Origin: an uncultured Alteromonadaceae bacterium
GTDB lineage: Bacteria; Pseudomonadota; Gammaproteobacteria; Enterobacterales; Alteromonadaceae
DNA: 64,000 nucleotides
Direction of reading: 5' to 3'
Assembly: GCA_947494925.1 (NCBI GenBank)
Contig: CANLWS010000008.1
Coordinates: 172,394-236,393, forward strand
Shown: in pieces, positions 20,679-38,723 of the stretch
How the letters are laid out: each line of letters opens with the position of its first letter
How positions within the stretch are numbered: position 1 is the stretch's first letter
The notes under the pieces: model-generated
The model's input: only the letters and a program-made list of their open reading frames with translations
Database searches by the model: none
Told to the model about the DNA's origin: nothing
Program-made: the position numbers and the translations under genes

Positions 20679-22211
20679 ATGAACCAACCCAAAAAAACAC
20701 TAGCGCTGATTATCTTAGATGGGTGGGGCCACAGAGAAGACACCTCTAACAATGCCATTGCCAATGCCAATACACCTGTGATGGATAAGCTGGCTCGCGA
20801 TTACCCCAGCACCTTCATATCTGGTTCCGGACTGGACGTGGGCTTACCGGATGGGCAAATGGGCAATTCTGAAGTTGGTCATGTTAATTTAGGGGCTGGA
20901 AGAGTTGTGTACCAGGACTTTACCAGAATCAGTAAAGCTATTGATGATGGTGAGTTCGAACAGAACCCTGCATTGTGCGCGGCGGTTGAAAAAGCAGTTA
21001 GTCAAGACAAAGCGGTTCATGTGATGGGGCTGATGTCTCCAGGCGGTGTGCATAGTCATGAAGAGCATATTTTTGCGATGTTGAGAATGGCAGCTAACAA
21101 AGGTGCTACACAGATTTATCTGCATGCTTTTCTTGATGGTCGAGACACACCACCACGAAGCGCAAAAGCATCGCTTGAAAAAGCCGATCAGGTATTCAGG
21201 GAAATTGGCGTGGGGAAAACCGCATCGCTGATTGGAAGATACTATGCAATGGACAGAGACGAGCGCTGGGACAGGGTTCAACAAGCTTATGATTTATTAA
21301 CTCTGGGTAAAGGTGAATATAGTGAAGATGACGCTGTATCTGGCCTGCAGGCAGCTTACAGCCGGGATGAAAACGACGAGTTTGTCAAACCAACAACTAT
21401 CGGCGACCCCGTTCAGATACAGAATGGCGACGCAATGATCTTTATGAATTTCAGGGCAGACCGTGCCAGAGAAATTACCCGTGCCTTTGTGGATAAGGAT
21501 TTTGATGGCTTTGAACGTACCTTGGCGCCTGAGTTGTCGACATTCCTGATGTTGACTCAATATGCTGCAAATATCGACGCCCCAAGTGCCTATCCTCCTG
21601 AGCCTTTAATCAACGTTATGGGAGATTGGCTGGCCAAACATGATAAAACCCAGCTGCGGATTTCTGAGACTGAAAAGTATGCCCACGTGACCTTCTTTTA
21701 CAGTGGTGGAAGAGAGGAGCTCTACCCTGGAGAAGACAGGATTTTAGTCCCATCCCCTAAAGTCGCAACCTATGATTTGCAACCTGAAATGAATTCCGAG
21801 GAATTGACTGACAAGCTGGTAGAAGCCATTGAATCAGGAAAATATGATGCAGTGGTGTGTAACTACCCTAATGGCGATATGGTGGGCCACACTGGGGTTT
21901 ATGAAGCTGCGGTTAAGGCTGTAGAGGCTGTTGATGCCTGCATTGGTCGTGTTGTTGCAGCCTTAGAAAAAACGGGTGGGGAATGTTTGATTACTGCGGA
22001 TCATGGTAATGCGGAAGAGATGCTTAACGAAGAAACCGGACAGGCCCATACCGCTCATACAAGTGAATTGGTCCCCTTTATTTACTTTGGTCGCGATGCC
22101 GCAACAAGACAGGGCGGTACCCTGAGTGATGTGGCACCTACTATGTTGCACTTGATGGGAATGCCGCAACCAGATGAAATGACCGGAAAGCCCATTATGA
22201 CGTTAAAATAG
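20679..22211 (+). CDS. gpmI: 2,3-bisphosphoglycerate-independent phosphoglycerate mutase
   Basis: 510 aa with typical iPGM motifs ([36 protein letters not shown]). Confidence 0.95.
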
Positions 22212-22215
22212 CGTT

Positions 22216-23367
22216 TTGAAGTTAAATACGATCTTGCTCAGAAAGCCCGGACTGGCACTGTCTCTGATAGTGCTTCTGTGCGTTGTATCAAGTTTTCAGG
22301 CTTCATCTCAACAAGATCAGGAGCAACTCCAGGATTTACAGCAGCAGATAAAACAGAAGCAACAAGAGCTGGACAAGCAGCTGGAAAACGCCAAGCGTTT
22401 GCAACAGCAGTTGAAGCAGGATGAGCTCAGAATAGCCGAAACAGCAAAAGCGCTGAATAGCACCCAGGTCAATCTTGAAAACAACGTTCAGCAACAAAAG
22501 CAGTTACGGGAAGAAAAGGCATCTCTAACGACTAAACAGCAGCAACAACAATCCTTGTTGGCCAGACAATTACGCAGCGCATTTACCGCTGGCAACTATG
22601 ATTATGCCAAGATGCTGTTCAATCAACAGGAAGCGGGAAAGTTCGAGCGAGTAATTACTTACTATCAATATCTCAATAAGGCCCGATTGGAGCAGATAGA
22701 ATTATTCAAATCTTTGGTAGCTCAGCTCCTACAAGTGAATGCAGATCTGGTTCAAAAGCAGCAGGAACTGGAGACATTACAACAAACCCAGAAAAATCAA
22801 CGGCAAACACTGACCAGCCAGCAAGCATCTCGTCAAGGGACCTTGTCCTCACTGGAGAAAAGTATCGACTCGGATGCTGCACAAATTGAACAACTACAAA
22901 TCAATGAGCAAGCACTTCGCAAGGCAATCAGCGACGCACAACGCATAGCTAGCCAGCGGCCTGAAGAATTGAAAGGGTTAGAAAATCTGCAGGGTAAACT
23001 ATTGAAGCCAACCAAGGGACGTATGCGTACCTTATTCGGCAAAAGGCGCCAGGGGCAGGTGCGTTGGAAAGGCGTGTTGTTTAATGGCAGCGCCGGGAAC
23101 CCGGTACGAGCGGTGCATTACGGGAAGGTTCTGTTTGCTGATTGGTTGCGTGGATTCGGCTTAGTGACCGTACTCGACCATGGCGAAGGTTACATGAGCC
23201 TTTATGGGCATAACCAGGCGCTTTTAAAACAAGTCGGGGAAACGGTAGAAGCCGGTGAAACTATCGCTTTGGTAGGGCAAAGTGGTGGGCAGAGTTCTCC
23301 TAACCTGTATTTTGAAATCCGCCATAAAGGTGAAGCTATTAATCCTGGCAAATGGTTGCGAAAATAA
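22216..23367 (+). CDS. envC: Murein hydrolase activator EnvC (coiled-coil plus degenerate M23 peptidase domain)
   Basis: A signal peptide, a long Q-rich coiled coil, and a C-terminal LytM/M23 domain. The gpmI-envC-yibQ order matches E. coli. Confidence 0.85.
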   Translation: MKLNTILLRKPGLALSLIVLLCVVSSFQASSQQDQEQLQDLQQQIKQKQQELDKQLENAKRLQQQLKQDELRIAETAKALNSTQVNLENNVQQQKQLREEKASLTTKQQQQQSLLARQLRSAFTAGNYDYAKMLFNQQEAGKFERVITYYQYLNKARLEQIELFKSLVAQLLQVNADLVQKQQELETLQQTQKNQRQTLTSQQASRQGTLSSLEKSIDSDAAQIEQLQINEQALRKAISDAQRIASQRPEELKGLENLQGKLLKPTKGRMRTLFGKRRQGQVRWKGVLFNGSAGNPVRAVHYGKVLFADWLRGFGLVTVLDHGEGYMSLYGHNQALLKQVGETVEAGETIALVGQSGGQSSPNLYFEIRHKGEAINPGKWLRK

Positions 23368-23491
23368 TTGCAAACCAGCAGGTGGAGAATTCCTGCTGAC
23401 TGATTGCCCCCCACTAGTATTCTTCTTCTATCACTCTATAATCAATGTCATAAAAACTGACAAGCATCCCACTAAAATAATAAGAAACATT

Positions 23492-24256
23492 GTGCGCTTT
23501 TATAAAATTATAAGATTCCTAGCCATTCTGGTCTCGTTCAATTCGTCCGCAGCGGACATAGCATTGATCATAGATGATATGGGAAATCGCTCCCGAGATG
23601 CGTTGGCATTCTCATTGCCTAAAGAAGTGGCGTTTTCTATTCTTCCCCACAAACCACTTTCTTCGGTTTATTCGCAACGCGCTGCCAGTCAGCAAAGAGA
23701 AGTCATGCTGCACATTCCAATGGAATCTCTTGCCGGAAAGAGATTGGGCCCAGGTTCTTTGACCGCAGACATGCATCCAATGAAAATACATCAGGTTTTG
23801 CAAGATGCTCTTAGTACCGTTCCCGACGCGATTGGTATGAACAACCATATGGGTAGCAAATTGACTCAATTGACGCTTCCAATGTCATCAACAATGGACT
23901 TTTTGCAACAACACAACTTGTTTTTTGTAGACAGCCGGACCACCAGATTCAGTAAAGCTGAACAAATTGCCCGACAAAAAGGGGTAATGAGCACCAAGCG
24001 CAATGTCTTTTTGGACCATGACGCAGACATCACTGAAATCGATGCTCAGTTCAGACGATTGCTTCGTCTGGCTAAGAAATATGGATTTGCTGTGGGCATT
24101 GCTCACCCCTACCCACAAAGCGTGAATTATCTGAAGCAACAACTGCCGACCTTGGCAGATAAAGGAGTTCGACTCGTTCCCCTGAGTGACGTTCTTGTAT
24201 CACAGGAATTGGCCAGATCGAACAGACGCGAACAATTGGAACAACAACTGGACTAA
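23492..24256 (+). CDS. yibQ: Divergent polysaccharide deacetylase family protein (YibQ-like). A GTG start is proposed; the table ORF begins upstream inside envC without a plausible ATG.
   Basis: Signal peptide (RFLAILVSFNSSAA), IALIIDDMGN, and conserved SILPH…HIPMES…NHMGS motifs of the YibQ/DUF610 family. Confidence 0.6.
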   Translation: MRFYKIIRFLAILVSFNSSAADIALIIDDMGNRSRDALAFSLPKEVAFSILPHKPLSSVYSQRAASQQREVMLHIPMESLAGKRLGPGSLTADMHPMKIHQVLQDALSTVPDAIGMNNHMGSKLTQLTLPMSSTMDFLQQHNLFFVDSRTTRFSKAEQIARQKGVMSTKRNVFLDHDADITEIDAQFRRLLRLAKKYGFAVGIAHPYPQSVNYLKQQLPTLADKGVRLVPLSDVLVSQELARSNRREQLEQQLD

Positions 24257-24283
24257 CTAGTTCAGGGAATACAGGAGTTAACA

Positions 24284-25231
24284 ATGCCAGGAGCTAACTT
24301 ACTTGCTTTAGTCGATGACATCGCCACCATTTTGGATGATGTCGCAGTATTGTCTAAAGTTGCAGCAAAAAAGACTGCAGGCGTGCTGGGCGATGACCTG
24401 GCATTAAATGCTGAGCAGGTCTCAGGTGTCAAAGCAGACCGTGAGCTTCCTGTGGTTTGGGCGGTGGCAAAAGGATCCATGTGGAATAAGGTCATTCTTG
24501 TGCCGTCCGCACTGCTTATCAGTGCTTTGTATCCACCTCTGATTACCGTATTGATGGTCATTGGCGGTCTATATCTTTGTTTTGAAGGATTTGAAAAAGT
24601 CGCCCATAAGTTCTTGCATAGCAAGGAAGACATAGCACAGGAGCACAAGCATAAGCTTGAAGCGCTGGCTGATCCCAAGGTCGATCTTGTTGCCTTGGAA
24701 AAAGACAAAATAAAAGGTGCTATCCGCACGGATTTCATCTTATCCGCGGAAATAATAGTGATCATTCTCGGCTCAGTGCAAAATGAAGCCTTTGCAACTC
24801 AGGTCGCTGTTGTTTCAGGTTTAGCCGTGGCCTTCACTGTAGGCGTATATGGTTTGGTCGCCGGAATTGTTAAACTGGATGATGCAGGTTTGTATTTACT
24901 GAGAAAATCCGTATCAGGTTCATTTGATGGGATTCAGCGGTTTTTCGGTCGGTTGTTGCTTCGCACTGCGCCATTGCTGATGAAAAGCCTGGCGATCATA
25001 GGTACTGCCGCGATGTTCCTGGTAGGTGGTGGTATCATTGTGCATAGCATTCCAAGTATTCACCATATTGTGGAGGACAGTGTTGCAGCGATAACAAATG
25101 TATTAGGCAGCTGGTTTGATGCAATTGGCCCCATATTGTTGGAAGGAATAACAGGTATTATTGCTGGTGGATTAGTATTGGCAATTGTTAGTTTAGGTCA
25201 AACTATCTGGAAGCCCAAAAAAGCAGCTTAA
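24284..25231 (+). CDS. DUF808-family (YedI-like) inner-membrane protein
   Basis: 315 aa with an N-terminus LLALVDDIATILDDVAVLSK characteristic of DUF808 and several TM segments. Confidence 0.6.
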   Translation: MPGANLLALVDDIATILDDVAVLSKVAAKKTAGVLGDDLALNAEQVSGVKADRELPVVWAVAKGSMWNKVILVPSALLISALYPPLITVLMVIGGLYLCFEGFEKVAHKFLHSKEDIAQEHKHKLEALADPKVDLVALEKDKIKGAIRTDFILSAEIIVIILGSVQNEAFATQVAVVSGLAVAFTVGVYGLVAGIVKLDDAGLYLLRKSVSGSFDGIQRFFGRLLLRTAPLLMKSLAIIGTAAMFLVGGGIIVHSIPSIHHIVEDSVAAITNVLGSWFDAIGPILLEGITGIIAGGLVLAIVSLGQTIWKPKKAA

Positions 25232-25244: not shown

Positions 25245-25793
25245 ATGCGTTGTACAAGTTGTAAGTCCGGAAACTTGAACCCGAGTTATCTGGACAAGTT
25301 ATTTCGTGCCCACACCTGTGATAATTGTGGTGGAAATTGGGTTCTGATTGAAGACTATGTGAGTTGGAAAGAGAATAATCCTGAACATGAGTTCGTCGCT
25401 GTTGAGGTGGAGTCAGTGGAAGATTCTGACAAAGCTATTTTGTGCCCAATGACAGGGACAATAATGCGTAAGCTGCACATTTCTAAAGACAGTCAACATA
25501 AAGTCGACTATAGCGTTGCTGTTGGTGGCGTGTGGCTTGACAAAGGAGAATGGGAATTACTCAAGGCTGCAGGGATGGCGGGCTCGCTGAATGGCATTTT
25601 AACTCAGCAATGGCAAACTAAAATTCAAGATGAAAAAGCCTATCAGACCTTTGAAAGTTTATACCTTTCGAAATTCGGAGAACAGGATTACGAAAAAATC
25701 AAAGAGCTGAGAGAATGGCTAACTAACCATCCTCGCAAATCTGATTTACGTTCTTATCTATTGGCTGACGATCCCTATTCTGCGAAACGATGA
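25245..25793 (+). CDS. Zinc-ribbon domain protein (hypothetical)
   Basis: N-terminal CxxC…CDNCGG four-Cys ribbon and a second Cys/His-rich segment (CPMTG…H…H). No confident family assignment. Confidence 0.4.
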   Translation: MRCTSCKSGNLNPSYLDKLFRAHTCDNCGGNWVLIEDYVSWKENNPEHEFVAVEVESVEDSDKAILCPMTGTIMRKLHISKDSQHKVDYSVAVGGVWLDKGEWELLKAAGMAGSLNGILTQQWQTKIQDEKAYQTFESLYLSKFGEQDYEKIKELREWLTNHPRKSDLRSYLLADDPYSAKR

Positions 25794-25854
25794 TCAGAGC
25801 TAAACATTTGCCAGGGCTGGTATGCCAGCCCTGGCACTAATCTTTTGGCCCTGG

Positions 25855-28800
25855 TTATTTCTTGGAATCAACGTCCACACCTTCCCACACTTTACTGAGC
25901 AATTGCATCGCTGCCGCGACACGGTTAATCGGTTTGATAAGATCGCTGGTGTCAGATTGTTGAACATCCAGCTTAATTGCTTCCAGTGATGCTGCCATGT
26001 GGCCCAATTGTTTGACTGCCTGGACAGATGGGTCGCCTTCAATATTCTGGCCCTGTTTACTGTCAAACGCTGAGCAGATATGTTCCCAACGTGCTTTTTG
26101 TTTGTCTGACATGGTGCCTCGAAGCAGAGCCAGTTTGAGCAGATTTTCTTCCGCGCCAGACGTCAACGTTTGGGCTTCACCAGTATAATGATCACCGATT
26201 AACTGCATAAGTTCATCATGATTCATCACAGCTGAAATCTTTTCAGCCATTTTGTTCATGTTTCGGTAACTACCCTGTAGTTTGAAGGGCGGTTCCTCAC
26301 GATAATCCTCGGCCGTTGCTGCAGATTCTATATATTGCAGGTTGACCTTTAGAATGACTTCCTGAATAGCGAACAAATGCCTGAGAACGGCAGTGATTTC
26401 ATTGACTTCTGCACCACTGTACTGATGGCTAAGATCTGTGCTGGCGATATTGTCACCCTGAGCCATTTTAATCAGCTTATAAACATCCTGCATATCCCTC
26501 AACGCCAGTGGAGCCAATACAGGATTTGAGGTCAGGCTGTTTTCGATGTAACTCAGAGCGAACTGTTCTTCTTTGCCGCCAAGAACGTCACCCAGATTAT
26601 AAATATCTGCACGGTTAGCGAGCATATCGGGCACTTTGAATACGTCGCCAGATTCTGTGTAGGGGTTTCCAGCCATGACAACGCAGAATTTCTTACCGCG
26701 CATATCATAGGTTTTACTTTGACCCTTCCAGACTCCTTCGATACGTCGTGTTCCGTCACATAGCGCGATGAATTTTTGCAGAAATTCAGGGTGAGTGTGT
26801 TGTATATCATCCAGATACAACATCACATTGTTACCCATCTCCAGGCCCAAATTGAGCTTTTCCAATTCTTGCCTGGCTGTTGCATTGGGGGCATTTTGCG
26901 GATCGATCGAAGTCACATCATGACCCAGTGACGGGCAGTTTATTTTCATAAACACCAAGCCAAGTCTGTCAGCCACGTACTCCATTAACGTTGTTTTACC
27001 GTACCCAGGAGGAGAAATGAGTAACAACAAGCCCATTAAATCTGTGCGTTTGCTGTCACCCACTGTGCCCATCTGTTTGGCCAGATTGTCGCCAATGATT
27101 GGCAAATAGACTTCATCAATCAGGCGGTTTCGGACAAACGAACTCAGAGGTTTGGCTGCGTAGGCATCTAGCTGCAATTCAGCTTTGCTGGCTTGCATGA
27201 CCTCATGGCGCAATGCATGGTAGCGGGTAAAGTTGCTAACGTGAACGCCGTGATAGTGCGCAAGACGTTGGTTAAATTCATCTAGCACTACCTCTAAACT
27301 GCCATCGGTAATATTTTTGTGCTCACTGAGCATGTCTTTTACTGTGACCTGCATGGACAGGTCAGTTGTACGTGTCGGTAGCTTGTCACGACATATCATC
27401 AAGGCTGCGGCTTCGGGCAAATAATGTGCAACTGCTACGCTACTTTTTTCATTCATTTGCTGAAGCGCATTCAACCAGGCCATTCCCAGTGTCCATTGTT
27501 CTTCCAGTCCGGCAATATGTTCAGCAGCAGGTTCAGTTTCGTCGATCAGCTTGCCGAATTGACTCATGGTAGTGTGAAATTCGCGATCATGGCCTAATTC
27601 TGAGAGCTTCGACTCGAACGATTTTATCTGTTCCAGGGCGACTTTGCTGGTGACAAATGCCACTTTGTTTTCTGCTAACTCCTGACTCAGATAATCAACG
27701 GCAAGTTGCACAGAATTTGGCGTAAAAGACAATTTGAATCGAGCCGCAAAAGCCGCAAGTTCGCTGGCCAATGTTGCTCTTAGTTGTTCAAAACCTTTCA
27801 GGCTGTGTAGTGTATTCGCCAGCATTTGTGCACTGAGCGCATGACTCTGCCAAATCTGCTTCTGGGTTTTACTGTGACCTGCGTAACACCAGAACAGCAT
27901 TGCCAAAGCCCTTGATTCTGGCGGATAGCGCAGCAAGCCCGCTTTTTGATGCACCGGAAGAAGGGCACTCAGCAAAGAAACTGTATCTTGGTCGTGTACG
28001 CCTTTTTCGTAGCCTTCCTGATATCGGGAAGACATGTATTCTCTCACCAGTTTGGCTAGTCCTGTCTTGTCTTCAACCAAGGTGTAGAGTTGGTCAATGG
28101 TCAGTCCATTGCGTTGTTGTTCTGCGTCTTGAATAATAGTGGAGGTAAGGAACTCAACCCGACTAACATCATCATTTTCCGAGACCAGTGGTTGTTGCCA
28201 ATAAGGTTTCAGCTCATTGAGCTCTTCATGTTCAAGTTGTTCAAAGTAATCTGTGCCCACCAGATGTCGATACAGGCCCTCATTCCGAGGTAAGAGCGTC
28301 AAATCCAAGGCTTGGGTGTTCACGCTGAATTTGTGTTTACCCAACTTAATAATTGAACCGCCATCTTCAAAAATATCCTGTTTATCCCGCAGACTTCGGA
28401 TACCTTGTTCTTTGGCTGATTTAAGCTGAGCTTCCAAATCATCGGCTTTAATCTGATCATTCAACTCCCGAAGTTGTGCCACCAGATCAGCGATTTTTAA
28501 CACCATAGGATCCGATGCAAAGTAGGTATTCATCTGGTCTGTATCGGAAAAAGTGTTTGCCCGGCGGCTTATCCCTTTAATGATGCGCTCAGCTGCGCTG
28601 AATATGTTCTGCGAACGACGTTGTTGGTCTTCGATCAATGCCTGTTTGCGACTTTCAAATGCACTATGCAATTCCTCACGTTTGTCCATGATGTCAGACA
28701 GAAACTGGTCATATTCACTGAATTTGGATTCCAGTTCTTCCAGTTGAATCATCAAGCGAGATAGTTGCTCATCTGATTTTTCCGGTGTGTCAGCCATAGC

Positions 28801-30921
28801 TAATGCGCTGGTGATACTTTGTGAGAACAACCTGAATTGGGCGGCAAATTCGGCACTGGCTTCGCCCGAACCTAGTTCTTTCCTGCGTTTTCTTCCTTGC
28901 GCCTTAACCTGGTTTAATTTGGCGTAGAGTTCCGAGATGTCATCAAGGATCTGTGTTCTGACTGTGGCATCCTCAACTTTCAAGCCGTTGAGAATTTCGG
29001 TTAGTAAATCTAACCCTACAGAAAGTTTTTCCAACTCTTCGTTTATAGGCGTTATTTCAACTACCAATTCTACCTGAGTAAGTGTTTTCTCAAGATCTGC
29101 CATTTTGGATTGATAGGGCTCCAGCGCTTTGTCACTGGCGAGGAAGTCAACAGTAGCGGTACTGACTTTATCAAATTGTTCTGTGACATCCTGATCGAGC
29201 GTTTGAATGCGGTCACTATCTATGTAGCGTTGATCCTTCAACGTGATTAAATGTCCACGCTGCTGACGCAATGATGTCAGGCAATCGACAAATTGTTCCG
29301 GTGATTTCCAGTTGCTGATATTAATCGAGCCCAGAATCTCGGCTTGTTGCTTTTCTGCATCGAGTAATGCTTTGCTGGCCTGGGCTCTTATCTGTTCTAC
29401 TTTCTCGAATTCGTCAATCACCAGCTCAGCAGTTGAAGTGATTTCCTTAACGATTTCGCCGATGCCATCGGTGTCTTTTTCATTTAACCAGAAATAGCTG
29501 TCGAATAAGCTACGACAGGTTTTTATCAGATCTTCGTAAAGGTTTCTGGTTGGAGTGGGAGAGGAGATATTGCGATGGATGGACAAAAGATCTGATATGC
29601 CTCGCACTAATTCTTTATTGCCAATCCTGCTATAGAAACTATCTGTCGTCGGTTGCTTGGACGCAAATTCCTGACTGTAGTAGGGCGTTTCCCAAACTTG
29701 CATTGGATGCACTCGGGTGGCTTCGTCTTCTGCGTTAAGCACCACCATGTGTCCATCGTCAAACACACTGTAGCCGTGCGCATAGATTGGATTCTGTAGT
29801 GTTTTACTGATCAAATTGTATGAGTACAGTCCCCGTAAACCGGATTCTGGTTCATAAAATACATATAATACGTCTTCGCCATTCGGAGAACGAATACTGC
29901 GTTTGAAGCGCAAGCCCTCTATCTGATCAGGAAAGGATTTGGTTTCACCATTTTGCAGGTAATATCCACCTGGAAAAATAATGCCATGGTCTTCTGGAAG
30001 AGAAATACAGGCAAGGCCAATAGCATCGATTCTGTTGACCTGGTTGGTACGTGTGTTAAATACCAGATAACGATATTGCTTCTCCCGGTACGGCTGGATT
30101 TTCAACAATACCAATGTGCCAACTTCTGCGTATTGTATGTCAGCGTCAGCCAGACTCTGCGTTGTATCTTCTACCGGTTCGTTGTATATCCCCAGCCCAT
30201 CTTCCGTATTATTCTCAACTTTAATCGTCAGTTGACCGTTAATGGTTTCAACAAACACTTTATCGCAGACATTGATGTGGGGATGGCTTCCCGAGACATG
30301 TTGCTCCCGATCAACCGATTGCCATTCAAAGTCATGGGTCGGCACCTTCTGGATGGCACGCTCACCTCGATTATCTATGTAACTGGCGCTGCCGTCTTTA
30401 TTAACTCGCCACTGAAATACGCGGGTGTCGTCTATTTTTCTGCCGATCTGAAACACGGCAAACAGAGTTTGATTCTGTATTTTTAGTTGTATCAGCCTGG
30501 CTTCTTTGTAATAAACGTAAAGTTCGTTAAATTCCTTGATGAACTGGGGATCTGCCAGAAAGGTACCTGCTGTATCCGCCGGCGTGAGTTCAACGCCGGT
30601 TTCTTTTTTGTCTAACTTAAACAGGCCGAATACATCGGCAACCTGAGTTTCTTTTTTCAGGCCGATAAATACATTGTAACCAAACAGGATATTAGCGCCG
30701 ACAGGCACGATATCCCGTGCCACGCAGTTGTTTTCTGTACGGACTCGGGCGCGAGCCAGCACATCCAGCTTGGCCTGACCAAATTCTTCGATCCGGGCCT
30801 GATTGAGACCGTCTACTTTGTTTTTTAGTGTCTTCGCCTGCTCAACCAGCCGCCCATGAATGACTTCATAAGCTCCGCCTTCAGCAACGGCTTGATCCAC
30901 TTGATTCTGATCTGCTGACAT
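25855..30921 (-). CDS. Giant (1688 aa) multidomain protein with a C-terminal MoxR/AAA_5-type AAA+ ATPase. The N-terminal and central regions are uncharacterised.
   Basis: Uninterrupted 5.07-kb ORF. Walker A LLLISPPGYGKTTL is encoded at ~26986-27027, Walker B VMLYLDDIQ at ~26806-26826, and sensor-1 is CVVMAGNP. The central ~800 aa is rich in heptad/E-Q-L repeats, and the first ~470 aa are beta-rich. It sits downstream of the flotillin gene in the same orientation with a 71-bp gap. Confidence 0.8.
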   Translation of the reverse strand: MSADQNQVDQAVAEGGAYEVIHGRLVEQAKTLKNKVDGLNQARIEEFGQAKLDVLARARVRTENNCVARDIVPVGANILFGYNVFIGLKKETQVADVFGLFKLDKKETGVELTPADTAGTFLADPQFIKEFNELYVYYKEARLIQLKIQNQTLFAVFQIGRKIDDTRVFQWRVNKDGSASYIDNRGERAIQKVPTHDFEWQSVDREQHVSGSHPHINVCDKVFVETINGQLTIKVENNTEDGLGIYNEPVEDTTQSLADADIQYAEVGTLVLLKIQPYREKQYRYLVFNTRTNQVNRIDAIGLACISLPEDHGIIFPGGYYLQNGETKSFPDQIEGLRFKRSIRSPNGEDVLYVFYEPESGLRGLYSYNLISKTLQNPIYAHGYSVFDDGHMVVLNAEDEATRVHPMQVWETPYYSQEFASKQPTTDSFYSRIGNKELVRGISDLLSIHRNISSPTPTRNLYEDLIKTCRSLFDSYFWLNEKDTDGIGEIVKEITSTAELVIDEFEKVEQIRAQASKALLDAEKQQAEILGSINISNWKSPEQFVDCLTSLRQQRGHLITLKDQRYIDSDRIQTLDQDVTEQFDKVSTATVDFLASDKALEPYQSKMADLEKTLTQVELVVEITPINEELEKLSVGLDLLTEILNGLKVEDATVRTQILDDISELYAKLNQVKAQGRKRRKELGSGEASAEFAAQFRLFSQSITSALAMADTPEKSDEQLSRLMIQLEELESKFSEYDQFLSDIMDKREELHSAFESRKQALIEDQQRRSQNIFSAAERIIKGISRRANTFSDTDQMNTYFASDPMVLKIADLVAQLRELNDQIKADDLEAQLKSAKEQGIRSLRDKQDIFEDGGSIIKLGKHKFSVNTQALDLTLLPRNEGLYRHLVGTDYFEQLEHEELNELKPYWQQPLVSENDDVSRVEFLTSTIIQDAEQQRNGLTIDQLYTLVEDKTGLAKLVREYMSSRYQEGYEKGVHDQDTVSLLSALLPVHQKAGLLRYPPESRALAMLFWCYAGHSKTQKQIWQSHALSAQMLANTLHSLKGFEQLRATLASELAAFAARFKLSFTPNSVQLAVDYLSQELAENKVAFVTSKVALEQIKSFESKLSELGHDREFHTTMSQFGKLIDETEPAAEHIAGLEEQWTLGMAWLNALQQMNEKSSVAVAHYLPEAAALMICRDKLPTRTTDLSMQVTVKDMLSEHKNITDGSLEVVLDEFNQRLAHYHGVHVSNFTRYHALRHEVMQASKAELQLDAYAAKPLSSFVRNRLIDEVYLPIIGDNLAKQMGTVGDSKRTDLMGLLLLISPPGYGKTTLMEYVADRLGLVFMKINCPSLGHDVTSIDPQNAPNATARQELEKLNLGLEMGNNVMLYLDDIQHTHPEFLQKFIALCDGTRRIEGVWKGQSKTYDMRGKKFCVVMAGNPYTESGDVFKVPDMLANRADIYNLGDVLGGKEEQFALSYIENSLTSNPVLAPLALRDMQDVYKLIKMAQGDNIASTDLSHQYSGAEVNEITAVLRHLFAIQEVILKVNLQYIESAATAEDYREEPPFKLQGSYRNMNKMAEKISAVMNHDELMQLIGDHYTGEAQTLTSGAEENLLKLALLRGTMSDKQKARWEHICSAFDSKQGQNIEGDPSVQAVKQLGHMAASLEAIKLDVQQSDTSDLIKPINRVAAAMQLLSKVWEGVDVDSKK

Positions 30922-30992
30922 AAATGACTCCTTGTTAATTGCCCAGTATCGACGACCAAAGACTCAACAGGCCTTGGCCGTCACACTTCTCA

Positions 30993-33008
30993 CTAACTGG
31001 CAGGAGAATCCTTCTTATTAAGAACTTTGCCTATTACATCAAGTACTTGAGGGTTATCTTTACTCTCTTGAAGGAATTTGGCAATCAGCGCAGTCATCGC
31101 GGTGTCCTTGGCATTGCCACTGGCACTACCAAAGCCGGCTACGAGTTCTTTGGCATCTTCAACGAAGCTGGCTTTACCATCTAAATGGTCCTTAAACGCG
31201 GTACTAAGGGCTTCACTTTTGCCAATCGTTCCATCAATAGATTTACCAACAGAAATAGATTTGATAAAGCTATCCAAATAGCCAGTATCTCCACCAACAA
31301 TATCGATATTGGCTTCTTTAAGCGCTTCGGACAACACTAAGGCCTGTTGTTTCGCAATTTCTACATTGGTACGAATGGATTCCATCTGCTCTTCGTGTTG
31401 TTTATCAAGGCGCATTCTGAATTCTTCGTGTGAACGTTGTTCCTCAGACATGGTAGCCATGGCTTCGAACTTCTTGGTCATGCCTTCTGCTTCTGCTGCA
31501 GCCATCTTGGCCGACACTTCTGCTTTCGCACTACCGGTCTTTTCTATGGCATCAGCTTTGGCCTCATCTACGCGCACTTCTGCCATGCCCTCTTGCTCTT
31601 TAGCAGCAGCCTGAGCTTCCATCACTTTAGCAGTAGCTAGGCCACTGGCTGCTTCCAATGCTTCTTTACCTTCCGCTTCTTTACGTCGCGACTGAGCCAG
31701 TTTTTCGGCTACTTCCAGATCAGCGGCTGCAATGATGGCTTTTTCTTTCGCAACGTATTCAGCTGACTTCTCCGCCGCTTCTGCCGCTTTAATGTCTTTA
31801 ACCAAAGCTTCTTCCGCTTCAGCTTCGGCCATAATTACCTTGGCGCGTTTGTTACGCTCGGCTTCTGACACGACGCGCACATCGTTTATTTCTTCTTCTT
31901 TCTCTGCTACGGTTTTATCCACTTCAACTCGACTACGTATTACATCAGCAATTTCGCGCTTCTCGTGTTCAATGAGCTTTTCATTGGCAATACGTTGTAA
32001 TGAAGCTTCCTTCTCTCGCTCAATCTGCTCCAATTCACGAGCTTTAGTAACACGTTCTTCTTCAATGGCAACTGCACGCAGGCGGTTGTTTTCAGCCACT
32101 TCCACTTCACGTTGTTTATTTTGTTCCTGAACTTGAATTTCCTGCTCAGCTTGCACACGCGCCTGGTCAGCCTTAAGGCGTTCTTCATGCTGAACTCGTT
32201 CCGTCTCGGCCATTTCACGAGCCTGCACAGTATCCACTTCGCGTTTTTGCTTCGCTTCTGCATCTGCCTGCTGACGTTCCAATTCAAGAATCGCTTCCCG
32301 TGTTTCCACGTCTTTGCGTTTTATCTTCATTTCTTCATCGCGTCTGAACACATTGGTCTGAATGTGTTGCTCTGCAGTTAACTCGGTGATCTTACGGATA
32401 CCTTGAGAATCAAGAATGTTATTCGGGTCGAGTTTTTCAAGTGGCGTCTGTTCCAGATAGTCGATAGCTACATCTTCCAGAATATAACCATTCAAATCGG
32501 TGCCTATGTTATCGATAATCATGTCACGGAAGTTATCACGCTTGGCATACAGGTCTTCGAATTCAAGGGATTTACCCACAGTTTTCAACGCTTCTGAAAA
32601 CTTGGCGCTGAATAGATCTTCCAGCGTTTCAATATTCGAGGCACGCTCACAACCAATGGCCTGTGCGACTTTCATGACATCTTCTCGGTTTTTATTCACA
32701 CGGACAAAGAAACCCACCTTAATATCAGCGCGTATGTTGTCTTTACAAATCAATCCATCTGAACCACTTCGGTCGACTTCAATGGTTTTCAGGGAGATAT
32801 CCATTATTTCCATTTTATTGAAGACAGGTATGACGACACCGCCGGTGAAGGTTACATTAGGCTCGTTACCCATTTTATTGATGATCATGGCTTTGCCCTG
32901 TTCGACTTTTTGATAAAGTCGGGCGAGCATGAGAATAACGCCCATCACCAGGACAAATGCCCCGACAGCAAGGGAAATCCAAAAAATTACATCACTTTCG
33001 TTGTTCAT
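30993..33008 (-). CDS. yqiK: Flotillin-family SPFH/band-7 protein (YqiK-like) with an extended EA-rich coiled-coil C-terminus
   Basis: An N-terminal TM anchor, an SPFH domain (…MIINKMGNEPNVTFTGGVVIPVFNKME…), a long charged coiled coil with flotillin-type EA repeats (AEAEAEEAL…), and 671 aa in total. It follows a yqiJ-like gene, as in E. coli yqiJK. Confidence 0.8.
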   Translation of the reverse strand: MNNESDVIFWISLAVGAFVLVMGVILMLARLYQKVEQGKAMIINKMGNEPNVTFTGGVVIPVFNKMEIMDISLKTIEVDRSGSDGLICKDNIRADIKVGFFVRVNKNREDVMKVAQAIGCERASNIETLEDLFSAKFSEALKTVGKSLEFEDLYAKRDNFRDMIIDNIGTDLNGYILEDVAIDYLEQTPLEKLDPNNILDSQGIRKITELTAEQHIQTNVFRRDEEMKIKRKDVETREAILELERQQADAEAKQKREVDTVQAREMAETERVQHEERLKADQARVQAEQEIQVQEQNKQREVEVAENNRLRAVAIEEERVTKARELEQIEREKEASLQRIANEKLIEHEKREIADVIRSRVEVDKTVAEKEEEINDVRVVSEAERNKRAKVIMAEAEAEEALVKDIKAAEAAEKSAEYVAKEKAIIAAADLEVAEKLAQSRRKEAEGKEALEAASGLATAKVMEAQAAAKEQEGMAEVRVDEAKADAIEKTGSAKAEVSAKMAAAEAEGMTKKFEAMATMSEEQRSHEEFRMRLDKQHEEQMESIRTNVEIAKQQALVLSEALKEANIDIVGGDTGYLDSFIKSISVGKSIDGTIGKSEALSTAFKDHLDGKASFVEDAKELVAGFGSASGNAKDTAMTALIAKFLQESKDNPQVLDVIGKVLNKKDSPAS

Positions 33009-33054: not shown

Positions 33055-33696
33055 TTATTCGGTTACAGATGACATAGACATGAGTTCGGTTTCTGTAACA
33101 ACCGAATACACATCTTCATCAGGTTTATATTCAATCAAGGCGATGCGGGTGCCTTTTTTAATCTCGTTCGGTGTTGCACAGCGCACACTCAATACCATGC
33201 CGTCATCTGTTGTGGCCTGGCCAAAACTTTCCGTTACTGTTTGGGTAGTCGAGGTGCAAATTGTGCCGATTAAGTCGTTCTTTGATACACCTTCATGGGT
33301 TTTGAAAAATTGCCTGAGAGGACGAATACTAACTGCCGCTATTGGCAAGGCAATTATCACAGCTACCAGCGCAACCAATGCACCTATTGCTGTCGCAGTG
33401 AGTATGCCATCAAATAAGGGCATAATGTATTTGCGAGCTAGATAGGTAAGGGCCAGCGCATAAATGTCAATCAGTGTGATTGCTACTGTCAGGGGAACGC
33501 CATCCAGCCCGAGCTTTTCAAGCCAGGATCCACCTGTGTCAGCGTCAGAATCTGCTTCAATGTCAGCATCGAAATCGAGGATCTCAAAGTCGGCCAGTCC
33601 AGCAAACACCATTACCCAATAAAGCATTAGAAATATAAAAGGGACTGAGAAGTACAAAGAGGGCGTACTAAACATCTGATTAAGAAAAGTTTCCAT
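33055..33696 (-). CDS. yqiJ: NfeD-like / YqiJ-family membrane protein (OB-fold C-terminus)
   Basis: 213 aa with multiple TM helices, then a soluble C-terminal domain (…LIGTICTSTTQTVTESFGQATTDDGMVLSVRCATP…) typical of NfeD short homologues. It is the first gene of the flotillin operon. Confidence 0.6.
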   Translation of the reverse strand: METFLNQMFSTPSLYFSVPFIFLMLYWVMVFAGLADFEILDFDADIEADSDADTGGSWLEKLGLDGVPLTVAITLIDIYALALTYLARKYIMPLFDGILTATAIGALVALVAVIIALPIAAVSIRPLRQFFKTHEGVSKNDLIGTICTSTTQTVTESFGQATTDDGMVLSVRCATPNEIKKGTRIALIEYKPDEDVYSVVTETELMSMSSVTE

Positions 33697-34010
33697 TTAT
33701 TACTGCTCCATTTTTAACTGGGCATACTGCAAAACTAGCCTGCCAAGTGCAGGTCAAAATACTAATATGTGGCTAATTTGTCAATTCACTGGCAATTGTG
33801 TTGAGGAGATATATTGCGCCGCGAGCCTCCTCCAGACAAGGCTCAATTAGCGGTTCCATAGACCTATATCTTTGATAAAAAGAAGGTTTTCTTGGTATAG
33901 GACAGGTGTGATTTCGCAGATAGTAAAAATCATCTCACGACAAAAAAATGCGCTTGCAAAAACCGGGAAATGTTATATTATAACGTCCGTTTTCAGCAGG
34001 TGGTTTAAAC

Positions 34011-34412
34011 ATGGCATTAAGCAGCAAAAAATCGATTAAAGACAGATTAGGAATATGGGCGTCAAGTCTATGCGCCTTGCATTGTCTTTTGCTGCCTATA
34101 CTGATCCCTGTGCTGCCTTTTGTAAGCGCCAGCTTTTTCGCACAGGACTGGTTTGAGAAAACCATTTTGTCTTTATCAATGATTATTGGATTCTGGGCGT
34201 TGTTATCGGGTTTCTATCGATATCACAGACAGTTGTATCCCCTGTACAGTTTGTTGTTGGGTGGTTTGATATATTGGAATAAAGATATGTTTGGTGAAGC
34301 TTACGAACCTTTCACTATCGCAGTGGGTGCAATGCTTATCGTTGCTGCACATATTACTAACATTAATTTGTGCAAAAACTGTAGCGATTGCCAGAGTTGC
34401 GAAACTAACTAA
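34011..34412 (+). CDS. MerC-family-like small membrane protein with a Cys-rich C-terminus
   Basis: Four predicted TM segments, LCALHC in TM1, and C-terminal CKNCSDCQSC. A candidate TTGCAA…TATATTATA promoter lies upstream. Confidence 0.4.
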   Translation: MALSSKKSIKDRLGIWASSLCALHCLLLPILIPVLPFVSASFFAQDWFEKTILSLSMIIGFWALLSGFYRYHRQLYPLYSLLLGGLIYWNKDMFGEAYEPFTIAVGAMLIVAAHITNINLCKNCSDCQSCETN

Positions 34413-34416
34413 AGTA

Positions 34417-35115
34417 TCAGGTACATTCCGCGAGTACTTTGCGCGCAGCTTCTGGATCATTGGCAAAAATTCCGTCTATCCCCCAATCATAAAGCCTTTT
34501 GATATCGTCCTTTTGATCAACAGTGTAACTATATATTTTCAGGCCACGTTGTTTGGCATCCTGCACAAATTTTTGGTCAAGGAAGCCGACATCTGCATTA
34601 ACCGATTCAGCACCCAAATCGGCAGCAAATCTTGCGTAATTTAGCGGAATACTCGCTGTGAGTGCTCCTATTCTGGCGTTCGGTGACAGGGATTTCAAAA
34701 GTGCTAGCGCCGGGTGGTTAAAGGATGAGTAGACTATTTGGCGTTGCTCGAACCCAAAGCGTTGAGCGCAGAGGTTAGTATAGTGGAGGAGTTTCTCAAT
34801 GTGCTGAACACCCTTGATTTCTATGTTCAACAGACACTGGCCAGCAATTAACTTCATGGCTTCACTAAGGGTCGGGACTGCTTGCCCCTGACCTGCGTCT
34901 AGCTGTTTTATTTCGTCCAGACTAAGCTGGCTTAAGTGACCTTGACCGCTTGTTGTTCTATGCAGCCACTGGTCATGAATAACTACAAATTCCTCACCGT
35001 GCTGATGAATATCCAGTTCAATGCCATTGGCTTTTTGTGTTAGCGCTTTTTCGATGGCTAGTAAGGTGTTTTCCGGAGCATGGGCGCTGGCGCCGCGATG
35101 AGCATAAATAAACAT
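34417..35115 (-). CDS. Glycerophosphodiester phosphodiesterase
   Basis: 232 aa with the GDPD signature FIYAHRGASAHAPENTLLA…GIELDIHQ…HD. Confidence 0.85.
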   Translation of the reverse strand: MFIYAHRGASAHAPENTLLAIEKALTQKANGIELDIHQHGEEFVVIHDQWLHRTTSGQGHLSQLSLDEIKQLDAGQGQAVPTLSEAMKLIAGQCLLNIEIKGVQHIEKLLHYTNLCAQRFGFEQRQIVYSSFNHPALALLKSLSPNARIGALTASIPLNYARFAADLGAESVNADVGFLDQKFVQDAKQRGLKIYSYTVDQKDDIKRLYDWGIDGIFANDPEAARKVLAECT

Positions 35116-35139
35116 ATTTCCGTCTGAAGGGGTGACCCC

Positions 35140-36006: not shown

Positions 36007-36010
36007 GAAA

Positions 36011-36871: not shown

Positions 36872-36994
36872 TGTCTTGGACTCCTATCTCAATTCAGCGC
36901 GGATTGTACAACATTAACTGAGTTTCTGTGATACTCAGTGCGTCTATGTAATGCATTTTTATCCAATGATGTAGTCAATTCAGTGAAGGGAAAT

Positions 36995-38669: not shown

Positions 38670-38723
38670 CTGTCAAAAACAGCAAATAAACGAAGGCAAT
38701 TTAAAAAATAGTGCAAATAACGC

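What the first reader, a model, noticed from the sequence alone, without database searches (positions are those of the whole stretch)
25855..30921. Giant protein: unassigned 470-aa N-terminal domain, ~800-aa coiled coil, and AAA_5-like ATPase with an intact catalytic motif set
Walker A (SPPGYGKTT, nt ~26986-27015), Walker B (LYLDD, nt ~26806-26820) and sensor-1 (VVMAGNP), plus a following LANRAD segment, are all intact, so the ATPase is probably active. The ATPase lies at the extreme C-terminal third, behind a very long helical region (heptad-like E/Q/L/K periodicity from about aa 480 to 1280). The N-terminal 470 aa is rich in beta-type sequence (YxY, GxxY, alternating hydrophobics) and has no motif I recognise. 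A single AAA+ module behind a long coiled coil is unusual. MoxR/AAA_5 proteins are usually compact, roughly 300-aa chaperone-like ATPases.
Basis: seen in the sequence. Interest (0 to 1): 0.7.

Follow-up and report, generated by a model that had tools for sequence, protein, structure and literature searches.

The report
Flotillin-linked giant AAA+ ATPase (BacE family)
The 1688-residue protein is real, but it is an ordinary member of a widespread, already catalogued and still functionally untested family (Pfam DUF3686, P. aeruginosa BacE/PA3728) that always sits behind a flotillin membrane-scaffold gene pair, so it most likely works on the membrane rather than in the DNA repair its database name suggests.

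Summary

- **N-terminus:** The "unassigned" domain is a full-length match to Pfam DUF3686 (E = 4e-201). AlphaFold2 models it as a beta-propeller.
- **"800-aa coiled coil":** This is really about 430 aa of broken helical bundles (which include DUF7902), followed by about 440 aa of compact globular domains packed on the ATPase.
- **Family and context:** More than 6000 homologues share the same architecture, and NCBI labels them "DNA repair ATPase". In every locus with enough upstream flank (74 of 80), the gene follows homologues of E. coli yqiJ and yqiK (flotillin). Half of the loci also carry a YjfI-PspA pair.
- **Prior description:** The arrangement was described by Ravi et al. 2024. It is the bacCDE core of the P. 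aeruginosa bacABCDEF operon.

The most likely function is a hexameric remodelling motor for flotillin and/or PspA membrane scaffolds during envelope stress. This is inferred and has not been tested. It is a new member of a known, uncharacterised family, and interest is low to moderate.

The parts
25855..30921 (-). Gene for the 1688-aa DUF3686-family giant AAA+ ATPase (orthologue of P. aeruginosa BacE / PA3728 / PA14_16190)
   Evidence: ORF. Pfam DUF3686 + DUF7902 + AAA/AAA_5. More than 6133 homologues. 51-52% identical to the P. paraeruginosa protein in L029, which has the same domains.
30928..30933 (-). Shine-Dalgarno AAGGAG, 6 nt before the ATG at 30921
   Evidence: Read directly from the sequence.
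30781..30918 (-). N-terminal long helix (aa 2-47)
   Evidence: AlphaFold2 secondary structure from DSSP.
29689..30765 (-). Beta-propeller (aa 53-411), the core of Pfam DUF3686 (match aa 32-477). It has about 27 strands, consistent with seven four-stranded blades.
   Evidence: Pfam E = 4e-201. AlphaFold2 pLDDT is about 90. The Foldseek PDB hits with E <= 1e-3 are predominantly beta-propeller proteins: IFT-A, Elp1, clathrin heavy chain, paraoxonase, prolyl oligopeptidase. The blade count is inferred from the strand list, not from coordinates.
28372..29673 (-). Helical-bundle arm (aa 417-850): 13 helices of 4-58 residues separated by short loops. It contains DUF7902 (aa 598-682, nt 28876-29130).
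   Evidence: AlphaFold2. Pfam DUF7902 E = 4e-28. Heptad-like periodicity is found only in aa 473-522 and 583-765.
28234..28353 (-). Small conserved beta domain (aa 857-896; D846, G861, F865, G889 and T890 are invariant or nearly invariant)
   Evidence: Both AlphaFold2 models. Conservation.
27052..28233 (-). Compact, mostly helical middle region with a second small beta sheet (aa 897-1290), packed against the ATPase
   Evidence: AlphaFold2 model of aa 780-1688: pLDDT 91.7, pTM 0.82. This is the most variable part of the family.
26596..27126 (-). AAA+ alpha/beta subdomain (aa 1266-1442). Walker A 1303-1311 (nt 26989-27015). Walker B LYLDD 1368-1372 (nt 26806-26820). Pre-sensor-1 beta hairpin 1393-1406 (nt 26704-26745). 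Sensor-1 N1419 (nt 26665-26667). Candidate arginine finger R1437 (nt 26611-26613).
25858..26595 (-). Helical lid with a long insert before the invariant GSYR motif (R1553, candidate sensor 2, nt 26263-26265), followed by C-terminal helices to aa 1688
   Evidence: DSSP. Invariance of Q1549-G-S-Y-R1553. The sensor-2 role is inferred.
30993..33008 (-). Upstream gene: 671-aa flotillin-family inner-membrane protein (YqiK / BacD / PaFlo3 type) with one N-terminal transmembrane segment, an SPFH region and a long Glu/Ala-rich helix
   Evidence: BLASTP to E. coli YqiK: 29% identity over 456 aa, E = 2e-44. Weak NCBIfam FloT hit. Directly upstream of the ATPase gene in 74 of 80 loci; the 6 exceptions are cut at a contig end.
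33055..33696 (-). First gene of the cassette: 213-aa three-transmembrane-segment protein with a C-terminal soluble domain (YqiJ / short-NfeD / BacC type)
   Evidence: hhalign of an 18-member alignment against E. coli YqiJ: probability 91.6%, E = 8e-7, 141 columns. Present in 67 of 80 loci in the same position and on the same strand.
33756..33784 (-). Sigma-70-like promoter candidate (TTGACA-17-TATTTT) upstream of the three-gene cassette
   Evidence: Consensus scan only. The number of such sites in the region is no higher than in shuffles, so this is weak evidence.
25809..25836 (.). 12-bp GC-rich hairpin between the convergent ATPase gene and the Zn-ribbon gene; likely a shared terminator
   Evidence: Terminator scan. 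Sequence.

Best explanation
**What it is**

This is the Alteromonadaceae orthologue of the DUF3686-family giant AAA+ ATPase, called BacE (PA3728 / PA14_16190) in P. aeruginosa. It is the third gene of a conserved cassette:
- a YqiJ-like membrane protein with three transmembrane segments (short NfeD type);
- a YqiK-like flotillin;
- the giant ATPase.

The window carries the 'abbreviated' form of the psp-like bac operon. It lacks the YjfI (DUF2170)-PspA (YjfJ) pair and the PLD-type hydrolase.

**What is shown**
- The protein has an N-terminal helix, a beta-propeller, a jointed helical-bundle arm, a compact alpha/beta region, and one MoxR/AAA_5-type AAA+ module.
- The Walker A Lys, an Asp-Asp Walker B, a sensor-1 Asn and two Arg residues are invariant.
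- The gene is genetically locked to the flotillin pair across several phyla.

**What is inferred**
- Like other single-module AAA+ proteins, it assembles into a ring, probably a hexamer of about 1.1 MDa.
- The propeller-tipped arms reach the cytoplasmic face of the flotillin/YqiJ scaffold.
- ATP binding and hydrolysis are used to remodel, disassemble or load the flotillin assembly. Where PspA is present, the PspA/ESCRT-III-like polymer is a likely target too.
- This would form part of an envelope-stress response, analogous to Vps4 acting on ESCRT-III or to FtsH held inside the HflK/C cage.
- The family-wide DD Walker B is the same DDIQ sequence as in DnaA. It suggests slow, partner-regulated hydrolysis rather than a fast unfoldase.
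For: **Family and architecture**
- Pfam finds DUF3686, DUF7902 and AAA_5.
- There are more than 6133 homologues, named 'DNA repair ATPase' or 'MoxR-like ATPase' by their sources.
- The N-domain alone finds 722 clusters at 50% identity. Full-length members are nearly all about 1550-1930 aa.

**Structure**
- The AlphaFold2 models have pLDDT 86.4 and 91.7.
- The Foldseek hits to the N-terminal model with E <= 1e-3 are predominantly beta-propeller proteins.
- The catalytic residues are invariant.

**Genomic context**
- The flotillin gene lies directly upstream on the same strand in 74 of 80 loci, and the YqiJ-like gene in 67 of 80. The misses for the flotillin gene are all at contig ends.
- The loci span Gamma-, Beta-, Delta- and Zetaproteobacteria, Longimicrobium and a Clostridia MAG. 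Other neighbours are not conserved.
- The flotillin protein matches E. coli YqiK at E = 2e-44. The membrane protein matches YqiJ by hhalign at 91.6% probability.
- The YjfI-PspA pair is upstream in 41 of 80 loci. A PLD gene is downstream in 16 of 80.

**Literature**
- Ravi et al. 2024 describe exactly this operon and its abbreviated form (PMC11237479).
- bacABCDEF is co-transcribed by RT-PCR, and BacB-F rise 6- to 13-fold in a bacA mutant (PMC10948618).
- PA3728-PA3732 are induced by phage infection (PMC12041424) and are up in a stress proteome (PMC13637947).
- E. coli DnaA has LLIDDIQF as its Walker B.
Against: - No experiment addresses the biochemical activity, oligomeric state, localisation or substrate of any family member.
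- Gene linkage shows a functional connection, not which partner is acted upon.
- The window has no PspA homologue of the YjfJ type within 64 kb, so a PspA-directed role cannot be obligatory.
- MoxR-type ATPases usually work with a VWA-domain partner. None is present in the protein or its neighbours, so the MoxR analogy is incomplete.
- The loop between beta2 and alpha2 has no aromatic pore-loop residue, which argues against classical substrate threading.
- The Asp-for-Glu Walker B could mean very low turnover.
- Single and multiple deletions of P. aeruginosa SPFH genes, including paFlo3, gave no strong phenotypes (PMC13086221).
Confidence: 0.55

Rival explanations
1. It is a MoxR-type chaperone for client proteins. 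The ATPase does not act on the flotillin/PspA scaffold itself. Instead it uses the flotillin microdomain as a platform and remodels or matures one or more client membrane complexes recruited there. The beta-propeller would be the client-binding module, replacing the VWA adaptor of canonical MoxR systems.
For: - The closest structural relatives, CbbQ and NorQ, are maturation or activation factors for specific enzymes.
- Beta-propellers are generic protein-binding platforms.
- Flotillins and NfeD proteins are described as scaffolds or chaperones for other proteins (PMC13086221; PMC11237479).
Against: - No candidate client gene is conserved next to the cassette. Only the flotillin pair, then PspA/YjfI and PLD, recur.
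- There is no VWA/MIDAS partner.
Confidence: 0.25
2. It is an anti-phage or abortive-infection defence module. The giant ATPase would sense infection and, together with the flotillin pair, alter the membrane to stop phage replication.
For: - PA3728-PA3732 are among 17 genes up-regulated in all phage-infected P. aeruginosa samples (PMC12041424).
- Large multidomain NTPases and SPFH proteins do occur in defence systems (general knowledge).
Against: - PADLOC gives no significant hit for any of the three proteins. The only matches are two sub-threshold P-loop hits, E > 1e-3.
- The window neighbours are housekeeping genes (gpmI, psd, rsgA, orn, DUF808), not a defence island or mobile element.
- Identity to relatives falls off with taxonomic distance, as for a vertically inherited core gene.
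- The induction is what is expected of any psp-type envelope-stress response.
Confidence: 0.1
3. It is a DNA repair ATPase, as the database name says: an SMC/Rad50-like long-coiled-coil ATPase acting on DNA.
For: - The Pfam title for DUF3686 is 'ATPase involved in DNA repair', and NCBI names the protein 'DNA repair ATPase'.
- There are weak sub-threshold P-loop matches to RuvB.
- recJ lies a few kb away in Pseudomonas loci.
Against: - The ATPase is an AAA+ module of MoxR type, not an ABC/SMC head.
- No DNA-binding or nuclease domain was found by Pfam or NCBIfam.
- The helical region is not a continuous antiparallel coiled coil.
- The RuvB matches are far below the family cut-offs (about 16 bits against 282) and cover only the P-loop.
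- recJ linkage is limited to 7 Pseudomonas loci at variable distance. Linkage to two membrane proteins is universal.
- No paper in the searched library supports a DNA role.
Confidence: 0.04

Closest known systems
P. aeruginosa BacE (PA3728 / PA14_16190) and the bacABCDEF 'biofilm-associated cluster' (Mace 2008; PMC10948618, 2024)
   Same: - The Pfam architecture is the same: DUF3686 + DUF7902 + C-terminal AAA/AAA_5. Identity to the P. paraeruginosa orthologue is 51-52% over the full length.
- The preceding genes are the same: a 213-aa membrane protein with three transmembrane segments (BacC) and a roughly 680-aa flotillin (BacD).
   Different: - The window lacks bacA (DUF2170/YjfI), bacB (PspA/YjfJ) and bacF (PLD).
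- The upstream region shows only a sigma-70-like site and an imperfectly spaced sigma-54-like motif, whereas the bac operon is reported to be sigma-54 dependent.
[quoted passage not shown] 2024, mSystems, PMC11237479)
   Same: The domain description, the operon partners and the existence of abbreviated PspA-less operons all match this locus.
   Different: - That paper gives only a comparative-genomic description.
- The analysis here adds that the AAA+ module is of MoxR/AAA_5 structural type.
- It also adds that the 'coiled coil' is a jointed helical-bundle arm followed by compact domains.
- It also adds that the Walker B is DD.
MoxR / AAA_5 ATPases (CbbQ, NorQ, RavA) and their giant relatives midasin and dynein
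   Same: - Pfam AAA_5 is above its cut-off.
- The motif spacing is MoxR-like: NP-x10-VP-D-M-L-x-N-R.
- A pre-sensor-1 hairpin is present, and there is a long insert before the GSxR sensor-2 motif.
   Different: - The protein is 1688 aa with a 1290-aa N-terminal extension, against about 300 aa for MoxR.
- It has no VWA/MIDAS partner.
- Its Walker B is DD, not DE.
- By sequence profile, the N-terminal half of the core looks more like classical AAA proteins (Rix7/NVL/p97, E = 3e-7, profile positions 11-83 only).
- It has one AAA module, not six concatenated ones as in midasin and dynein.
E. coli YqiJ-YqiK and B. subtilis YuaF-FloT (NfeD-flotillin pairs)
   Same: The two upstream genes are homologues of YqiJ and YqiK, in the same order.
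   Different: At the yqiJK locus, E. coli K-12 has no ATPase gene downstream; sibD/ibsD follow instead.
Vps4-ESCRT-III and FtsH-HflK/C (AAA+ motors coupled to membrane scaffolds)
   Same: This is a functional analogy only. In each case an AAA+ ring is genetically or physically coupled to a polymeric membrane scaffold: PspA is an ESCRT-III homologue, and flotillin and HflK/C are SPFH proteins.
   Different: - The AAA+ clade is different: Vps4 and FtsH are classical AAA proteins.
- There is no MIT or protease domain.
- The coupling here is inferred only from gene linkage.

Membership tests
DUF3686 / BacE (PA3728) giant ATPase family | Full-length N-terminal DUF3686 domain | tested here: met
   PF12458, aa 32-477 against profile positions 2-448 of 448, E = 4e-201, 669 bits against a cut-off of 25.
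DUF3686 / BacE (PA3728) giant ATPase family | DUF7902 in the helical region and a single C-terminal AAA+ module with SPPGYGKTT / DDIQH / AGNPYT / NR / GSYR motifs; total length about 1600-1900 aa | tested here: met
   PF25472, E = 4e-28. All of these motifs are invariant in 81 family members.
DUF3686 / BacE (PA3728) giant ATPase family | Encoded directly downstream of YqiJ-like and YqiK-like (flotillin) genes on the same strand | tested here: met
   Window genes at 33055..33696 and 30993..33008. The same order holds in 74 of 80 loci for the flotillin gene and 67 of 80 for the YqiJ-like gene.
Complete psp-like bac operon (bacABCDEF) | DUF2170/YjfI and PspA/YjfJ genes upstream; PLD-family gene downstream | tested here: not met
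   tblastn with the L029 proteins finds none of them anywhere in the 64-kb window. The window therefore carries the abbreviated bacCDE-type cassette.
MoxR / AAA_5 AAA+ ATPases | AAA_5 profile match and a MoxR-like fold of the AAA+ module | tested here: met
   [not shown]
MoxR / AAA_5 AAA+ ATPases | Compact protein of about 300 aa working with a VWA/MIDAS-domain partner encoded nearby | tested here: not met
   The protein is 1688 aa. No VWA domain is found in it or in the 15 neighbouring proteins scanned.
MoxR / AAA_5 AAA+ ATPases | Canonical Walker B hhhhDE | tested here: not met
   The motif is LYLDD. D1371 and D1372 are invariant family-wide.
Classical AAA clade (Vps4, p97, NSF, FtsH) | Second region of homology with two arginine fingers directly after sensor 1, and no pre-sensor-1 beta hairpin | tested here: not met
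   [not shown]
SMC/Rad50-type 'DNA repair ATPase' | ABC-type head split by a long antiparallel coiled coil; DNA-related domains or partners | tested here: not met
   The ATPase is an AAA+ module. The helices are short and broken. There are no DNA-related Pfam or NCBIfam domains. The partners are membrane proteins.
Known anti-phage defence systems (PADLOC) | Significant match to a defence-system protein model | tested here: not met
   Only two sub-threshold P-loop matches (mad8 E = 1.6e-3, IetA E = 5e-3). There is nothing for the flotillin or YqiJ-like proteins.
Functional AAA+ oligomer | Ring (hexamer) formation and ATP hydrolysis | not testable with these tools
   Only monomer fragments could be modelled. 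The invariant Walker A Lys, sensor-1 Asn and two Arg residues are consistent with activity but do not prove it.

The most novel reading that the evidence does not exclude
The DUF3686/BacE proteins could be a bacterial membrane-remodelling motor of a kind not yet studied. In this reading, a roughly 1.1-MDa ring of MoxR-type AAA+ modules carries six jointed helical arms, each tipped with a beta-propeller. The ring docks on the flotillin/YqiJ cage and uses slow, partner-gated ATP turnover (DD Walker B) to open, disassemble or reposition SPFH scaffolds, and PspA/ESCRT-III scaffolds where present. That would make it a functional counterpart of Vps4 for flotillin. No dedicated ATP-driven remodeller of flotillin turned up in the literature searched here. 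The propeller-plus-helical-arm layout also loosely recalls eukaryotic coat and IFT proteins, but that rests only on weak Foldseek hits with TM-scores of about 0.1.
Probability: 0.3. Interest if true: 0.7.

Novelty: new member of a known kind. Interest (0 to 1): 0.3.

Why it matters
This particular gene adds little. A 100% identical protein is already in public assemblies. The family is in Pfam, NCBI annotates it routinely, and a 2024 comparative-genomics paper and the P. aeruginosa bac operon work both describe it.

What is worth recording concerns the family.
1. The 'DNA repair ATPase' name, propagated to thousands of proteins, has no support. Every line of context points to the membrane.
2. 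The ATPase module is structurally of MoxR/AAA_5 type but has no VWA partner, and it carries a family-wide DD Walker B.
3. The YqiJ-flotillin-ATPase triplet, not the PspA pair, is the invariant core.

Bacterial flotillins have no known energy-consuming partner. In P. aeruginosa the operon is linked to biofilm formation and virulence and is induced on phage infection. PA3728 is also listed as non-synonymously mutated, with positive selection, in at least three longitudinal cystic fibrosis studies. A biochemical and structural study of one member would therefore be useful.

Tried and rejected
- **Literature searches.** Searches for 'DUF3686', 'PF12458' and 'flotillin' + 'DNA repair ATPase' found nothing. 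The family was reached only through PA locus tags and a PspA/flotillin/NfeD search.
- **PDB by sequence.** The full-length protein against PDB sequences gave only weak P-loop matches, E >= 0.015.
- **PADLOC.** No defence-system match.
- **Pfam on the two upstream proteins.** Nothing, even at E <= 10.
  - The flotillin identity was established by BLASTP to E. coli YqiK.
  - BLASTP of the 213-aa protein against YqiJ also failed (E = 1.8). A profile comparison succeeded.
- **Coiled-coil reading.** Tested with AlphaFold2 and a periodicity scan, and rejected for aa 850-1290.
- **Second, degenerate AAA domain in aa 1000-1250.** Considered and rejected. The model there is almost all helical, with only four short strands.
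- **Sigma-54 promoter upstream, as reported for bacA.** TGGCAG-N7-TTGCA at about 33729-33747 has a spacer 2 nt longer than the consensus TGGCAC-N5-TTGCA. It is not accepted.
- **recJ linkage as support for the DNA-repair label.** Limited to Pseudomonas.
Full report
**1. The observation**

The window has one uninterrupted ORF at 25855..30921 on the minus strand, 1688 aa with an ATG start. An AAGGAG ribosome-binding site lies 6 nt upstream. A 12-bp GC-rich hairpin at 25809-25836 is shared with the convergent downstream gene.

- SPPGYGKTT is aa 1303-1311 (nt 26989-27015).
- LYLDD is aa 1368-1372 (nt 26806-26820).
- VVMAGNP contains N1419.
- LANRAD contains R1437.

The sequence-level observation therefore holds. 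Three descriptive claims do not, as the next sections show.

**2. The N-terminal domain is assigned**

Pfam PF12458 (DUF3686, titled 'ATPase involved in DNA repair') matches aa 32-477 against its whole profile with E = 4e-201. PF25472 (DUF7902) matches aa 598-682 with E = 4e-28. AAA and AAA_5 are weak but above their cut-offs at aa 1299-1422.

An AlphaFold2 model of aa 1-1000, built on an 81-sequence alignment, has mean pLDDT 86.4. It shows a long helix (aa 2-47), then about 27 beta strands between aa 53 and 411. The Foldseek PDB hits with E <= 1e-3 are predominantly beta-propeller proteins: IFT-A, Elp1, clathrin heavy chain, paraoxonase, prolyl oligopeptidase and WD40 proteins. TM-scores are low, so this establishes only the fold class. 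The strand count fits seven four-stranded blades, but I could not check that on coordinates.

**3. The middle is not an 800-residue coiled coil**

In the same model, aa 417-850 consists of 13 helices separated by short loops. The longest are aa 652-709, 738-788 and 487-531. A small beta domain follows at aa 857-896.

A second model, of aa 780-1688, has pLDDT 91.7 and pTM 0.82. That means aa 850-1290 is a compact, mostly helical region with two small sheets, confidently packed against the ATPase.

A Fourier scan for 3.5-residue hydrophobic periodicity exceeds the 99th percentile of shuffles only in aa 473-522, 583-765, 1021-1069 and 1119-1154, plus a patch at aa 1353-1395 inside the ATPase core. 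The heptad-like part is therefore about 300 aa of jointed helical bundles, not a continuous rod.

**4. The ATPase**

The DSSP order in the model is as follows:

| Element | Residues | Note |
|---|---|---|
| beta1 | 1299-1302 | |
| P-loop | 1303-1311 | Walker A |
| beta2 | 1323-1328 | |
| beta3 | 1366-1371 | ends in D1371-D1372 (Walker B) |
| beta hairpin | 1393-1406 | pre-sensor-1 position |
| beta4 | 1412-1418 | followed by N1419 (sensor 1) |
| short helix | 1432-1437 | carries R1437 |
| beta5 | 1439-1442 | |
| helical lid | from 1443 | long insert before the invariant GSYR motif (R1553) |

A sequence profile of the core instead finds classical AAA proteins (Rix7, NVL, p97; E = 3e-7). That match covers only alpha0 to beta2.

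K1309, T1310, D1371, D1372, N1419, R1437 and R1553 are invariant across 81 sequences that reach about 30-35% overall identity. Nucleotide handling is therefore under selection.

The Walker B acid pair is Asp-Asp, not Asp-Glu, in every member. The same DDIQ sequence occurs in E. coli DnaA (LLIDDIQF). From established knowledge, DnaA is a slow, partner-regulated AAA+ ATPase. 'Probably active' is reasonable, but 'intact canonical motif set' is not quite right.

**5. The family**

The word-indexed search returned 6133 homologues among its 8000 candidates. The best 120 are 54-100% identical, cover the full length and have the same Pfam set. Where named, they are called 'DNA repair ATPase', 'MoxR-like ATPase' or 'AAA family ATPase'. 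The closest named ones are Paraglaciecola and other Alteromonadaceae at 77%. An identical protein occurs on four Logan contigs with the same neighbours.

The N-terminal 480 aa alone, searched against 1.84 billion representatives, finds 722 clusters. The full-length hits are nearly all 1550-1930 aa with the domain at the N-terminus, and the shorter ones look like contig fragments. The three-part architecture is thus the family norm.

No solved structure is related beyond the P-loop.

**6. The genomic context**

Upstream on the same strand lie two genes:
- A 671-aa protein at 30993..33008. It is 29% identical to E. coli flotillin YqiK over 456 aa, E = 2e-44.
- A 213-aa protein with three transmembrane segments at 33055..33696. 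A profile of its family aligns to E. coli YqiJ with 91.6% probability, E = 8e-7.

These come from Gamma-, Beta-, Delta- and Zetaproteobacteria, Longimicrobium and a Clostridia MAG.

The flotillin gene is directly upstream on the same strand in 74 of these loci. The other 6 are cut at the contig end. The YqiJ-like gene is found in 67. None of the other window neighbours is conserved beyond the closest relatives.

A DUF2170 (YjfI)-PspA (YjfJ) pair precedes the cassette in 41 loci, but not in the window or its three closest relatives. A PLD-family gene follows in 16 loci.

The window neighbours are housekeeping genes: gpmI, an M23 peptidase, DUF808, psd, rsgA and orn.

**7. What is already known**

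Ravi et al. 2024 (PMC11237479) describe operons that combine four elements:
- a CesT/Tir-like (YjfI)-PspA pair;
[quoted passage not shown] - a YqiJ/YuaF-type protein with three transmembrane segments, sometimes with a PLD hydrolase.

They note that abbreviated operons without PspA are more widely distributed. That is this locus.

In P. aeruginosa the cluster is bacABCDEF (PA3732-PA3727):
- bacE = PA14_16190 = PA3728 is co-transcribed with the others, and its protein rises 8.9-fold in a bacA mutant (PMC10948618).
- PA3728-PA3732 are induced by phage infection (PMC12041424) and in a stress proteome (PMC13637947).
- PA3728 recurs among genes mutated in cystic fibrosis isolates (PMC8190622).
- The P. 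paraeruginosa locus L029 shows exactly the expected order: DUF2170, PspA_IM30, a 213-aa protein, a 688-aa protein, a 1746-aa DUF3686 protein, then PLD.

I found no biochemical or structural study of any member.

**8. The mechanism**

Shown:
- the domain layout;
- the MoxR-like module with conserved catalytic residues;
- the obligatory linkage to a flotillin/YqiJ pair, and frequent linkage to PspA;
- co-transcription and co-regulation in P. aeruginosa, from the literature.

Inferred:
- the protein forms a ring through its single AAA+ module;
- it reaches the flotillin (and/or PspA) assembly with its propeller-tipped arms;
- it uses ATP to remodel that assembly during envelope stress.

I put about 0.95 on the family and cassette assignment and about 0.45 on this specific mechanism. 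The overall confidence is 0.55.

The main rival, at 0.25, is a MoxR-style chaperone for client proteins that merely uses the flotillin platform. A defence role (0.1) and the database's DNA-repair role (0.04) have little support. PADLOC is negative. The context is housekeeping. recJ linkage is limited to Pseudomonas. No DNA-related domain is present.

**9. Verdict**

The ORF is real and its motifs are correctly read, but it is a conventional member of a large, catalogued and previously described family. Novelty: new member of a known kind. Interest is low to moderate (0.3). What interest there is belongs to the family, not to this instance: a mislabelled, untested, flotillin-coupled giant MoxR-type ATPase.

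Noticed in passing
window 25245..25793 (+): A 182-aa protein with an N-terminal TFIIB-type zinc ribbon (PF13453) is convergent with the ATPase gene and shares its terminator hairpin. Homologues lie within a few kb of the cassette in 9 of 80 loci (L003, L004, L006, L007, L010, L015, L016, L021, L040), in varying position and orientation. This may be a loose association.
   Followed up: partly
window about 33729..33747 (-), upstream of the YqiJ-like gene: TTGGCAGGCTAGTTTTGCA resembles a sigma-54 -24/-12 element, but the spacer is 2 nt longer than the consensus. The P. aeruginosa bac operon is reported to be sigma-54 dependent. A sigma-70-like TTGACA-17-TATTTT lies just upstream at 33756-33784.
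   Followed up: partly
window 30993..33008 (-): The flotillin homologue gets no Pfam hit at all, even at E <= 10, and only a weak NCBIfam FloT hit (E = 2e-4). Yet it aligns to E. coli YqiK at E = 2e-44. Profile libraries miss this SPFH subfamily.
   Followed up: yes
L058, L062, L074 (and L063): In a zetaproteobacterial MAG and in Lampropedia and Vandammella, the flotillin gene ends 0.9-3.4 kb upstream of the ATPase gene rather than directly before it. One or more extra genes are therefore inserted into the cassette there.
   Followed up: no
L029 13213..13920 and 15 other loci: A PLD-family (PLDc_2) gene follows the ATPase gene in 16 of 80 loci, within a few bases in L029 and up to about 2 kb downstream elsewhere (bacF in P. 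aeruginosa). It is absent from the window. recJ lies further downstream only in 7 Pseudomonas loci, which may be the origin of the 'DNA repair' flavour of the annotation.
   Followed up: partly
window 20679..25231 and 34011..42778: The flanking genes are ordinary chromosomal genes: gpmI, M23 peptidase, divergent polysaccharide deacetylase, DUF808, MerC-like membrane protein, GDPD, EamA transporter, psd, rsgA, oligoribonuclease-like RNase_T and a TonB-dependent receptor. There are no mobile-element or defence-island signs. The listed ORFs 22216..23367 and 23282..24256 overlap by 86 nt, so the GVG-start of the second is probably too far upstream: public gene calls give a 254-aa product there.
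   Followed up: partly
proteins P0128, P0195, P0241, P0247: A few family representatives carry the DUF3686 domain well inside the protein, starting at residue 150-670, or are up to 2036 aa long. This suggests N-terminal extensions or fusions in some lineages.
   Followed up: no
window 25855..30921, aa 1329-1346: The loop between beta2 and alpha2 of the AAA+ core (CPSLGHDVTSIDPQNAPN) has no aromatic pore-loop residue but is well conserved. No beta hairpin (helix-2 insert) is predicted there, unlike in typical MoxR proteins.
   Followed up: no
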